Shown here: piece after piece, positions 8,125 through 8,380 of the stretch
How the letters are laid out: every line of letters starts with the position of its first letter
Position numbering within the stretch: position 1 is the first letter of the stretch
Virus record (IMG/VR): IMGVR_UViG_2541047807_000006
From: a virus
Lineage: Duplodnaviria; Heunggongvirae; Uroviricota; Caudoviricetes
Reading direction: 5' to 3' (one strand)
Length of the DNA stretch: 9,150 nt
The notes under the pieces: model-generated
Database searches by the model: none
Told to the model about the DNA's origin: nothing
What the model saw: the letters and a program-made list of their open reading frames with translations, nothing else
Translations under genes and position numbers: made by a program

Positions 8125-8131
8125 CAACAAG

Positions 8132-8153
8132 GGCGGCGACAGCCGCCTTTTTT
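8132..8153 (+). terminator. Rho-independent terminator hairpin GGCGGC-GACA-GCCGCC followed by T6, 8 bp after the capsid stop; also overlaps the cosN-like 10-mer
   Basis: Seen directly: perfect 6-bp all-GC stem, 4-nt loop and a TTTTTT tract. The left arm lies within GGGCGGCGAC (8131-8140). Confidence 0.7.
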
Positions 8154-8227
8154 ACGGGTCCTCCCGGTGGAGTGGTCTGCCACGGGGCGGGAGCGGCGCG
8201 GAAAAAGGCTAGTTTTTGCATTTTCAT
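8143..8227 (+). repeat. Direct repeat copy 2 (85-bp conserved core)
   Basis: About 96% identical to 5608-5692. Lies between the capsid stop and the small-terminase promoter region. Confidence 0.85.
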
Positions 8228-8380
8228 TCGTCATCATCATCTTTCTATGATATTGAATTTTAAGTGTTTTTATTTTTAGTATGTTAATTTTGCTTGTTTT
8301 ATGCTCAACATATAGCGCATTTTTTGACCTCTTCTGAAAATTGTTCGCAAGATGCATGTTTAAAACATTCTGGAGCGGGT

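What the first reader, a model, noticed from the sequence alone, without database searches (positions are those of the whole stretch)
8125..8380. Lambda-type cos-like site immediately upstream of the Nu1-like terS, overlapping a terminator hairpin
GGGCGGCGAC (8131-8140) matches the first 10 nt of the lambda cohesive end as I recall it, in the same orientation and at a similar distance upstream of a Nu1-like gene as in lambda. Downstream short matches to lambda cosB (TTCGTCAT, TGTTTTTATTT) occur with different spacing, and an 85-bp GC-rich element absent from lambda sits between them. This would let the element be packaged by cos-cutting terminase while carrying a private cosB for its own TerS. 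The same 10-mer forms the left arm of a perfect terminator hairpin, so one sequence may serve both transcription termination and packaging.
Basis: partly seen in the sequence, partly recalled or inferred. Interest (0 to 1): 0.7.

Follow-up and report, generated by a model that had tools for sequence, protein, structure and literature searches.

The report
Satellite island's lambda-type packaging sites

Summary
The 10-mer GGGCGGCGAC is at 8131-8140. It is the 5' stem plus loop of the rho-independent terminator that follows the capsid gene, not cosN. It lacks the conserved CG flanks and has no cosQ upstream. Its last bases vary among relatives.

The "85-bp GC-rich element absent from lambda" is the lambda cosQ-cosN homologue. 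cosQ GGGTCCT is at 8156-8162. The predicted cohesive end GGGCGGGAGCGG is at 8185-8196, with CG on both sides. Records of phages cdtI and Tritos start at the homologous base. Phage yong2's record starts 12 nt later.

cosB (8199-8380) and the DUF1441 small-terminase gene (8381-8866) resemble those of mEp460/phi458-type lambdoid phages. That terminase family is only a remote relative of Nu1.

A second cos (5621-5846) shares the same cosQ-cosN but has a cdtI/Tritos-type cosB and only a stub of terS.

The element is a Gram-negative PICI with an EcCICFT073-like backbone, so it is a new member of a known kind. The cut-site position and the dual-use hairpin are not supported. Termini are inferred, not measured.

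The parts
6211..8124 (+). ClpP-like prohead protease / major capsid fusion gene of the island
   Evidence: Pfam Phage_capsid_4 3.6e-53 and CLP_protease 1.7e-35. It is 55-57% identical to the same fusion in mEp460, mEp213, Tritos and VT1-Sakai-type phages.
8129..8153 (+). Rho-independent terminator of the capsid gene (stem 8129-8137/8142-8150, loop GACA 8138-8141, T-run 8148-8153).
   Evidence: Fold -16.2 kcal/mol, z -5.7. The seven core pairs are kept in 9 variants, with only GC-to-GU changes on the 3' arm and a variable loop. mEp460 and an Stx2 phage also have a terminator right after this gene, with no cos nearby.
8156..8162 (+). cosQ of cos-B (GGGTCCT)
   Evidence: Identical to the GGGTCCT in lambda, phi80 and EcCICFT073, at 22 nt versus 23 nt from the nick. 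phi80's record annotates a 55-nt region covering its copy as cosQ. The assignment of cosQ to these 7 bp in lambda (48473-48479) is from my own memory. cosQ is described as a highly conserved 7-bp site in lambda-like phages (PMC4669245).
8183..8198 (.). cosN of cos-B: CG|GGGCGGGAGCGG|CG. Predicted nicks are at 8184|8185 (top strand) and 8196|8197 (bottom strand), giving a predicted 12-nt 5' end at 8185-8196.
   Evidence: bp 1-6 are identical to lambda, and all 5 differences fall in bp 7-12, the pattern of natural variation reported in PMC4669245. cdtI and Tritos records begin at the homologous G, and the yong2 record begins 12 nt later. Termini were not measured.
8199..8380 (+). cosB of cos-B (mEp460/phi458 type). 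It includes the (CAT)n block 8231-8241 at the R3-equivalent distance, the T-rich block 8265-8275, and the stretch 8340-8380 just upstream of terS that aligns without difference to phi458.
   Evidence: 76-81% identical to the cos-to-terS interval of phi458, 569R4, PhiR47 and related phages (alignment). Binding sites are inferred from position only.
8381..8866 (+). Island small-terminase gene (DUF1441 family)
   Evidence: PF07278 1.3e-35. phrog_141 'terminase small subunit' 6.7e-57. 67% identical to phi458 TerS. It is full length, but its C-terminal tail is non-acidic, unlike the phage proteins.
8863..9150 (+). Conserved 95-aa ORF that follows the packaging-specificity gene
   Evidence: phrog_1561 1e-51. 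73% identical to the last ORF of EcCICFT073.
5593..5618 (+). Terminator-type hairpin plus T-run in front of cos-A, weakened in this window by one stem mismatch
   Evidence: Fold -8.8 kcal/mol here and -16 kcal/mol in relatives that have a perfect GCCGGA/UCCGGC or CCGGGA/UCCCGG stem. The same arrangement precedes the cos next to rppA in EcCICFT073.
5621..5663 (.). cos-A: cosQ 5621-5627 and cosN 5648-5663. Predicted nick at 5649|5650, predicted end GGGCGGGAGCGT at 5650-5661.
   Evidence: Direct repeat 5599-5692 / 8134-8227, 93% identical. The signature pattern matches here. This end has the same 12 bases as the start of the cdtI and Tritos records.
5664..5853 (+). cosB of cos-A (cdtI/Tritos/HannyBb type). 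It includes the GGC repeats 5693-5704, an exact IHF consensus at 5713-5725 on the minus strand, TTTTCACCTG at 5743-5752 and 5820-5829, and a stub of about 7 codons of a cdtI-type terS at 5834-5853.
   Evidence: 93-95% identical to HannyBb, Tritos and cdtI, up to about 20 nt into their terS. IHF pattern. Coordinates.
5880..5902 (+). Terminator that closes the cos-A cassette
   Evidence: Terminator scan. The cassette 5621-5890 is precisely absent in L018, L038 and L076.

Best explanation
The window is a roughly 10.5-kb Gram-negative phage-inducible chromosomal island (PICI) with an EcCICFT073-like backbone. Its gene order is int, alpA, primase, ori, capsid homologue, packaging-specificity gene.

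The packaging site next to terS (cos-B) is a complete lambda-type cos:
- cosQ GGGTCCT at 8156-8162.
- cosN at 8183-8198, predicted to be nicked at 8184|8185 and 8196|8197, giving a 12-nt 5' end GGGCGGGAGCGG.
- An AT-rich cosB at 8199-8380.

Proposed mechanism (inferred): the island's DUF1441-family TerS binds this cosB and recruits a helper's lambda-gpA-type large terminase. The terminase cuts cosN and packages rightwards, through terS, across the att junction, then int and onwards. Candidate helpers are the mEp460, phi458, cdtI, Tritos and VT1-Sakai-type lambdoid phages. They share the cosQ-cosN, the TerS family and the protease-capsid fusion.

A second, directly repeated cos (cos-A, 5621-5853) has the same cosQ-cosN. 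Its cosB is nearly identical to that of cdtI/Tritos/HannyBb-type phages, and it has no cognate terS. It most likely lets that second helper type package the island with the helper's own TerS.

Shown here: the sequence anatomy, the homologies and the conservation. Inferred: the nick positions, binding, helper identity and direction of packaging.
For: - The lambda cosQ-cosN core aligns to 8154-8214 (42 of 62 identical) and to 5619-5679. These are the two best places in the window, and the cos-B score is above all 100 shuffle maxima.
- The cos signature occurs twice in the window and never in 200 shuffles.
- The pattern of identity matches what is published for lambda-like cos sites: bp 1-6, both CG flanks and cosQ are kept, and the differences lie in bp 7-12 (PMC4669245).
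- The cdtI and Tritos records start at the base homologous to 8185 and end at ...CCACG. The yong2 record starts at the base homologous to 8197 and carries its 12 nt at its right end.
- Phage homology covers 8150-8400 and excludes the hairpin.
- The downstream gene is in a terminase small-subunit family found in the terS position, just before terL, in phi458, mEp460, cdtI and yong2.
- cos-B is present in every relative that covers the region, with its cosQ-cosN signature intact in the copies tabulated. The junction is found in 175 complete E. coli genomes, and helper-type cos/terS in 1574 of 5426.
- The EcCICFT073 relationship rests on the same terminator-cosQ arrangement next to rppA, a last ORF 73% identical, and a similar int/alpA/DUF4222/primase order.
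- EcCICFT073's cos sites are experimentally functional (PMC6092414, PMC6739421).
Against: - No physical termini were measured. Record starts are depositors' choices, and mEp460_4F5 starts 5 nt upstream, at the base homologous to 8180.
- A plain local alignment to lambda with harsh scoring is not above chance. The case rests on the structured signature and on transitive homology.
- TerS binding sites in cosB are unassigned. The IHF consensus present in phi458 and in cos-A is degenerate in cos-B (and my own reading of the sequence).
- The island TerS has a divergent, non-acidic C-terminal tail, so its ability to bind a helper TerL is unproven.
- Two direct cos sites 2535 bp apart could yield sub-genomic cuts, and their predicted ends differ at bp 12.
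Confidence: 0.82

Rival explanations
1. One reading: cosN is GGGCGGCGAC(AG) at 8131-8142 and overlaps the terminator hairpin, so one sequence serves both termination and cos cutting.
For: An exact 10 of 12 match to the lambda cohesive end, on the same strand and 250 nt upstream of terS against 190 nt in lambda.
Against: - The flanks are AA|...|CC rather than the conserved CG|...|CG.
- There is no GGGTCCT 22-23 nt upstream.
- Only 3 of 32 positions match lambda on the left side.
- The site lies outside the block homologous to helper-type phages.
- Position 10 is T or A in most relatives, and positions 8-10 are loop bases that vary freely.
- The one-sided GC-to-GU substitutions indicate selection on a plus-strand RNA hairpin.
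- Helper-type phages have a terminator at the same place after the capsid gene, far from cos.
- The site is 54 bp too far from cosB, and in lambda a 3-bp change in cosN-cosB spacing is severely defective (PMC9026076).
- A better cosQ-cosN lies next to it.
Confidence: 0.03
2. The island's DUF1441 protein does not act as an autonomous TerS. It acts like Rpp: it heterodimerises with the helper's TerS, redirects the terminase to the island's cosB and blocks helper packaging.
For: - The backbone is EcCICFT073-like, and the gene occupies the rppA position, downstream of a terminator-cos module.
- The C-terminal tail differs consistently from phage TerS, being non-acidic.
- The N-terminal recognition-helix motif RQTAAARL is identical to phi458 TerS, so hetero-oligomers are conceivable.
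- A more distant relative (L047) carries only an 85-aa ORF with a DUF1441-like N-terminal sequence after cos, judged by eye and not scanned against any profile library.
Against: - It is full length: 161 aa against 164, aligned over residues 1-151. Rpps are 30-40 residues shorter than TerS (PMC9026076).
- There is no sequence similarity to any PDB chain, RppC included if it is deposited, at E <= 10.
- Its strongest family match is a bona fide terminase small-subunit family.
Confidence: 0.12
3. One or both cos sequences are inert remnants of recombination with prophages and play no part in transfer.
For: - cos-A is variable. It is precisely deleted in L018, L038 and L076, and replaced in L023 and L026-L028.
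- It carries only a stub of terS.
- In EcCICFT073, deleting cos2 did not reduce transfer (PMC6092414).
Against: - Every copy tabulated, at both sites, matches the cosQ-to-cosN search pattern, while the spacer and flanks vary.
- cos-B is present in all relatives that cover the region.
- cos-A stays 93-95% identical to live phage cos across its whole cosB.
- Homologous sites in EcCICFT073 are functional (PMC6092414).
Confidence: 0.08

Closest known systems
Bacteriophage lambda cos (cosQ-cosN-cosB) and the 'lambda-like' cohesive-end group: lambda, 434, phi80, 21, N15, Gifsy-1 (PMC4669245)
   Same: - The 7-bp GGGTCCT lies 22 nt upstream of the nick, against 23 nt in lambda.
- CG dinucleotides flank a 12-nt segment whose bp 1-6 are GGGCGG.
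- CGCGG lies to the right of the segment.
- An AT-rich cosB follows, with terS after it, in the same orientation.
- A T-rich block sits at bp 81-91, against 82-92 in lambda.
   Different: - bp 7-12 of the cohesive end differ at 5 of 6 positions.
- cosB has no lambda R sequences.
- TerS belongs to DUF1441 rather than Phage_Nu1 and is only a remote homologue.
- No terL follows, because this is a satellite.
- A terminator abuts cosQ.
cos regions of DUF1441-TerS lambdoid phages (mEp460, phi458, PhiR47, 569R4; cdtI, Tritos, HannyBb; VT1-Sakai-type Stx phages; Fels-1)
   Same: - cosQ-cosN is near-identical.
- cos-B's cosB is 76-81% identical to the mEp460/phi458 type, with TerS 67% identical.
- cos-A's cosB is 93-95% identical to the cdtI/Tritos/HannyBb type.
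- These phages have the same protease-capsid fusion, at 55-57% identity.
   Different: - The island has two cos sites of two different cosB types in one 10.5-kb element.
- Both are preceded by terminators.
- There is no terL, portal or tail genes.
- The TerS C-terminal tail is not acidic.
EcCICFT073 and other Gram-negative cos PICIs (PMC6092414, PMC6739421, PMC9026076)
   Same: - The backbone order is similar: int, alpA, DUF4222, primase, a capsid homologue, a packaging-specificity gene next to cos, then a conserved ORF of about 95 aa that is 73% identical.
- A terminator-TTTTTTAY-GGGTCCT arrangement precedes cos.
- There are two cos sites per island.
   Different: - EcCICFT073 has lambda's exact cohesive end, a lambda gpE/gpD-type capsid and decoration pair, and Rpp instead of a TerS homologue.
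- Its two cos sites are inverted and flank rppA.
- Here the cohesive end is of the cdtI/mEp460 type, the capsid is a ClpP fusion, and a full-length DUF1441 TerS is encoded.
- The two cos sites here are direct repeats that flank the capsid gene and have different cosB types.
Satellites that carry a helper's cos without a TerS (P4, SaPIbov5), as summarised in bioRxiv 10.1101/2022.09.08.507074
   Same: cos-A is a near-copy of a helper-type cos with no cognate terS in the island.
   Different: The same island also carries a second cos with its own TerS.

Membership tests
Lambda-like cos site (12-nt 5' cohesive-end group) | A 12-nt cohesive-end sequence with strong identity to lambda, especially bp 1-6 | tested here: met
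8185-8196 GGGCGGGAGCGG has 6 of 6 in bp 1-6 and 1 of 6 in bp 7-12. cos-A at 5650-5661 has 6 of 6 and 2 of 6.
Lambda-like cos site (12-nt 5' cohesive-end group) | Conserved CG dinucleotides flanking both nick positions (PMC4669245) | tested here: met
CG|...|CG at 8183-8184 and 8197-8198, and at 5648-5649 and 5662-5663.
Lambda-like cos site (12-nt 5' cohesive-end group) | A 7-bp cosQ upstream of cosN at conserved spacing | tested here: met
   GGGTCCT at 8156-8162 and 5621-5627, 22 nt before the nick, against 23 nt in lambda, phi80 and EcCICFT073. Absent upstream of 8131.
Lambda-like cos site (12-nt 5' cohesive-end group) | [quoted passage not shown] | tested here: inconclusive
   The interval is homologous to that of phages with the same TerS family. 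cos-A has an exact IHF consensus at 5713-5725. cos-B has only a degenerate one. The R sites of DUF1441 TerS are not known. The candidates, (CAT)n at 8231-8241 and GGC repeats at 5693-5704, are positional guesses.
Lambda-like cos site (12-nt 5' cohesive-end group) | Virion DNA ends with 12-nt 5' overhangs at cosN | not testable with these tools
   Indirect support only. The cdtI and Tritos records start at the homologous top-strand position, and the yong2 record starts 12 nt later.
Gram-negative PICI (EcCICFT073-like) | int, alpA, primase plus downstream iteron ori, small size (10-20 kb), a dedicated att site, and no full virion gene set | tested here: met
   Pfam hits for integrase, AlpA, D5 primase and DUF4222. 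Iterons GGTGAACAG/CTGTTCACC at 5226-5465. Unit length of 10,477 bp between GAAATACCCGTAT cores in strain CUVET16-819. The only head and packaging genes are the capsid fusion and terS.
Gram-negative PICI (EcCICFT073-like) | Induction, replication and high-frequency transfer by a helper phage | not testable with these tools
   Candidate helpers are inferred from the shared cos, TerS family and capsid fusion.
Rho-independent terminator (hairpin 8129-8153) | A GC-rich stem, a short loop and a 3' U-run directly after a stop codon, with the structure conserved in relatives | tested here: met
   Nine pairs in all, six of them G-C; -16.2 kcal/mol, z -5.7; six T's follow; the hairpin starts 5 nt after the stop at 8124. 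The seven core pairs are kept in 9 variants with only GC-to-GU changes, and no double compensatory changes. A terminator occupies the same position in mEp460, where it is annotated, and in an Stx2 phage.
Phage_Nu1 (PF07471) small terminase | A match to the Nu1 family profile above threshold | tested here: not met
   Pfam gives DUF1441 only. BLASTP against Nu1 gives E = 3.1. Remote homology is suggested by reciprocal PHROG cross-hits at 5e-7 and 5.6e-8.

The most novel reading that the evidence does not exclude
The island carries two complete, directly repeated cos sites that share cosQ-cosN but have cosB modules of different specificity. cos-A is a 93-95% copy of the cos of cdtI/Tritos/HannyBb-type helpers, with no cognate TerS. 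cos-B has diverged (about 80% identity) and is paired with an island TerS whose C-terminal tail has been remodelled.

This could be a dual-helper strategy: borrow one helper's TerS, and bring your own TerS for the other. Both sites are insulated by terminators that abut cosQ, an arrangement shared with EcCICFT073 and not seen in the phage cos regions examined here.
Probability: 0.3. Interest if true: 0.5.

Novelty: new member of a known kind. Interest (0 to 1): 0.3.

Why it matters
The result corrects the map of this island's packaging site. It gives exact, testable predictions: termini at 8184|8185 and 8196|8197, and a 12-nt end GGGCGGGAGCGG.

It shows that EcCICFT073-type satellites exist in versions adapted to a second large group of E. 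coli lambdoid prophages, those with a DUF1441 TerS and a ClpP-capsid fusion. Matches to that cos-to-terS region occur in 1574 of 5426 complete E. coli genomes.

Practically, cos-A and cos-B are short cassettes that could be used to ask which helper types mobilise such islands.

It does not change the current understanding of cos packaging or of PICIs.

Tried and rejected
- **BLAST to lambda.** blastn of 8100-8400 against the phage collection listed neither lambda, phi80 nor HK97 among the 25 rows shown (13 further records were not listed). The longest exact runs I saw shared with lambda in the alignment are 9 nt, below the 11-nt word. A local alignment of the lambda core with +2/-3 scoring was not above the shuffle maxima. 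A fitting alignment and a structured pattern were needed.
- **HK97.** HK97's ends are unrelated, with 4 of 16 at cosN and no cosQ.
- **Rfam.** Scanning the whole window gave only chance-level hits.
- **Promoters and terminators.** The promoter scan found none in 7900-9150. The terminator scan reported the 8132-8147 hairpin only on the minus strand, so I folded it directly.
- **Solved structures.** The PDB sequence search with the island TerS found nothing at E <= 10. The Nu1-family protein of relative L032 found nothing at E <= 0.01.
- **Relatives in genomes.** The genome-contig scan with TerS returned only 5 loci. The IMG/VR scan with the capsid fusion was far more useful.
- **Literature on termini.** I found no experimental termini for cdtI, Tritos or mEp460 in the held library.
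- **Hairpin covariation.** RNAalifold found no double compensatory changes, only GC-to-GU. Support for the structure comes from conservation of pairing, not from covariation.
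Full report
**What the window is**

The ORFs and Pfam hits are as follows:
- tyrosine integrase, 1-1239
- AlpA, 1659-1868
- DUF4222, 3110-3409
- D5-type primase, 3391-5223
- ClpP-protease/major-capsid fusion, 6211-8124
- DUF1441 protein, 8381-8866
- a 95-aa ORF, 8863-9150

In E. coli CUVET16-819 the same element (98.8% identical) lies between rcnR and thiM. 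It is bounded by GAAATACCCGTAT cores 10,477 bp apart. Iterons GGTGAACAG/CTGTTCACC follow the primase gene.

This is the architecture of a Gram-negative PICI. Comparison with EcCICFT073, fetched from CFT073, shows a similar backbone order, and the last ORF is 73% identical.

**Checking the observation**

GGGCGGCGAC is at 8131-8140, TTCGTCAT at 8227-8234 and TGTTTTTATTT at 8265-8275. The 10-mer sits inside AAGGGCGGC-GACA-GCCGCCUUU followed by a T-run (8129-8153). This starts 5 nt after the capsid stop codon and folds at -16.2 kcal/mol (z = -5.7). The 10-mer is therefore the 5' arm plus three loop bases of a classical rho-independent terminator.

**Where the real cos is**

Three lines of evidence move cosN 54 bp downstream.

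First, homology to phages starts only at about 8150, after the hairpin, and runs through to terS. The phages are mEp460, phi458, PhiR47, 569R4, VT1-Sakai-type Stx phages, Fels-1, cdtI and Tritos.

Second, the deposited genomes of cdtI and Tritos begin with GGGCGGGAGCGTCGCGGAAAAAGG and end with ...GGGTCCT(T/C)CCGGTGG...CCTGCCACG. Their first base is therefore homologous to window 8185. Hafnia phage yong2's record begins at the CGCGG that follows and carries its 12 nt at its right end. That is what is expected if one record was opened at the top-strand nick and the other at the bottom-strand nick, 12 nt apart.

Third, the segment aligns to lambda's own cos junction:

- window: ACGGGTCCT-CCCGGTG...CCACG|GGGCGGGAGCGG|CGCGG
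- lambda: ACGGGTCCTTTCCGGTG...TTACG|GGGCGGCGACCT|CGCGG

The 7-bp GGGTCCT is intact, 22 nt from the nick against 23 nt in lambda. Both CG dinucleotides at the nicks are kept. bp 1-6 of the cohesive end are identical, and all five differences fall in bp 7-12. This is the pattern of natural variation that Feiss and colleagues describe for lambda-like phages (PMC4669245).

The signature GGGTCCT-N20-24-CGGGGCGG-N6-CGCGG occurs twice in the window and in none of 200 shuffles. A fitting alignment of the 62-nt lambda core picks 8154-8214 and 5619-5679 as the two best places in the window (scores 15 and 13; null maximum 9.96 +/- 1.44).

With bp 1 set at 8185, TGTTTTTATTT lies at bp 81-91, against 82-92 in lambda. 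TTCGTCAT (bp 43-50 here, 66-73 in lambda) is not positionally equivalent.

**Why the 10-mer is not cosN**

- Among close relatives from IMG/VR the loop is GATA in most, GACA in three, and GAAA in one. The exact 10-mer is a minority allele.
- In nine variants of the hairpin, the seven core pairs are kept. Substitutions are one-sided GC-to-GU changes on the 3' arm, and the loop, which corresponds to lambda positions 8-10, varies freely. This fits selection on a plus-strand RNA hairpin. No double compensatory changes were seen.
- mEp460 (annotated in the record) and an Stx2 phage also have a terminator directly after the homologous capsid-fusion gene, far from cos.
- The same 10-mer occurs by chance elsewhere in related DNA, for example inside the primase gene of EcCICFT073-type islands.
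- In lambda, even a 3-bp change in cosN-cosB spacing is severely defective (PMC9026076). A site 54 bp further from cosB would be misplaced.

A 94-nt direct repeat (5599-5692 and 8134-8227, 93% identical) contains the identical 35-mer from cosQ through the left half of cosN.

Downstream of this upstream copy (cos-A) the sequence is 93-95% identical to the cos-to-terS interval of HannyBb, Tritos and cdtI, up to about 20 nt into their terS. There the homology stops, and a terminator follows at 5880-5902. cos-A has an exact IHF consensus at 5713-5725.

cos-A's predicted end (GGGCGGGAGCGT) differs from cos-B's at bp 12. Mismatches at bp 9 and 12 are tolerated in lambda/N15 experiments (PMC4669245).

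cos-A is variable among relatives:
- present in most;
- precisely deleted (5621-5890) in L018, L038 and L076;
- replaced in L023 and L026-L028.

cos-B is present in every relative that covers the region.

Prophages with the cos-A type of cosB next to a DUF1441 terS are common. Of the 839 complete E. coli genomes that match this cosB, 163 carry the island version, and the others sampled are prophage contexts. cos-B/terS-type matches occur in 1574 of 5426 genomes, and the island junction in 175.

**The terS gene**

It belongs to Pfam DUF1441 and PHROG 141 ("terminase small subunit"). It is 67% identical to phi458 TerS and has an identical RQTAAARL helix motif.

It is not a Pfam Nu1 member and shows no BLASTP similarity to Nu1. 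Nu1 and DUF1441 proteins do cross-hit each other's PHROG profiles at about 1e-7. "Nu1-like" therefore holds only as remote homology.

The island protein is full length. However, its last 15 or so residues (...SRMVKNDVVNEVAKQA) replace the acidic tail seen in the four phage DUF1441 TerS compared, and this island-type tail is conserved in relatives.

**Mechanism**

The following steps are inferred; I did not test them. The island TerS binds cosB of cos-B and recruits a helper gpA-type TerL. TerL nicks cosN to give 12-nt 5' ends, and DNA is packaged rightwards.

cos-A would let cdtI/Tritos-type helpers package the island with their own TerS, as with satellites that carry a helper's cos.

Termination needs only cosQ and cosN and does not depend on cosB type (PMC4669245). 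Either site could therefore terminate packaging. How sub-genomic cuts of 2.5 or 7.9 kb are avoided is unknown. In EcCICFT073, deleting the second cos increased lambda-mediated transfer (PMC6092414).

The capsid-fusion homologue suggests some role in capsid assembly, but capsid genes of Gram-negative PICIs are reported as not required for transfer (PMC10111431).

**Comparison with what is known, and verdict**

The closest known system is EcCICFT073. It has two functional cos sites with lambda-type cosQ and cosN and a distinct cosB read through Rpp-TerS (PMC6092414, PMC6739421, PMC9026076).

In CFT073 I found the same terminator-TTTTTTAT-GGGTCCT arrangement in front of the cos next to rppA, and the second cos inverted on the other side of rppA.

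The present island differs in four ways:
- its cohesive-end variant;
- a ClpP-capsid fusion instead of a gpE/gpD pair;
- a full TerS homologue instead of Rpp;
- two direct cos sites with two cosB types.

This is a new member, or at most a modest variant, of a known kind. Interest is low to moderate.

Noticed in passing
window 5226-5465: A dense array of GGTGAACAG / CTGTTCACC iterons in both orientations lies directly after the primase gene. This is very likely the island's replication origin, as described for Gram-negative PICIs.
   Followed up: partly
L001 2362 and 12839 (E. coli CUVET16-819): The island is flanked by GAAATACCCGTAT cores 10,477 bp apart and sits inside the thiM leader. The 5' half of the TPP riboswitch is left upstream of int, and the 3' half stays next to thiM. 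Riboswitch control of thiMD may therefore be disrupted or replaced. A 27-nt repeat CGAAATGTGTGGTCAGTTGTGTGGTCA lies just inside both ends and may contain integrase arm sites.
   Followed up: partly
window 8819-8863; L004, L002, L096: The island TerS ends ...SRMVKNDVVNEVAKQA in the close relatives that encode it. The four phage DUF1441 TerS compared end in an acidic tail (for example EAGADDEEELQQEE). This could affect TerL binding or interference with the helper.
   Followed up: partly
L099 13529-13640 (EcCICFT073 cos next to rppA) compared with L004 and window 8231-8241: The proposed Rpp-binding R3-PICI (ACACCACCACCAC, bp 53-65) resembles the CATCACCACCAC / TCATCATCATC block at bp 47-59 in the cosB of DUF1441-TerS phages and this island. 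The DNA specificity of Rpp may derive from this cos family.
   Followed up: no
L032 and L034, 4947-6000: Close relatives (capsid 96% identical) have swapped the module after the capsid gene. They carry a cos with end GGGCGGCAGACG and a lambda-like right flank, a Nu1-family TerS (phrog_57, 5.8e-52), and then an inverted mEp460-type cos remnant before the conserved last ORF. The packaging modules appear to be exchanged as cassettes.
   Followed up: partly
L047 5060-5903: In a more distant relative (capsid 79% identical), cos is followed by an 85-aa ORF that by eye resembles only the N-terminal part of a DUF1441 TerS (not scanned against any profile library). A 199-aa ORF that looks like a tail-assembly protein follows. 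The short ORF is possibly Rpp-like.
   Followed up: no
window 5593-5618 and 5880-5902: The cos-A cassette is bracketed by two similar terminators (GCCGGAGCAATCCG(G/C)C-T6 and GCCGGATTTTCTCCGGC-T6). The precise loss of 5621-5890 in L018, L038 and L076 suggests gain or loss by recombination between them. In this window the upstream stem carries a mismatch that weakens it from -16 to -8.8 kcal/mol.
   Followed up: partly
window 8340-8380: The 40 nt before the terS start, including the palindrome TGTTCGCAAGATGCATGTTTAAAACA, align without any difference to phi458 in the MAFFT alignment, while the rest of cosB is only about 80% identical. This may be a conserved regulatory or binding element.
   Followed up: no
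window 6005-6211: A conserved 68-aa ORF (phrog_4934, 7e-34, function unknown) directly precedes, and overlaps by one base, the capsid-fusion gene. EcCICFT073 has an unrelated 68-aa ORF in the same position.
   Followed up: no
L002 1-5 (mEp460_4F5, LR595868.1): This record starts at CCACG, 5 nt upstream of the start of cdtI and Tritos, so not all deposited ends in this phage group agree. This is a reminder that record starts are only circumstantial evidence for termini.
   Followed up: no
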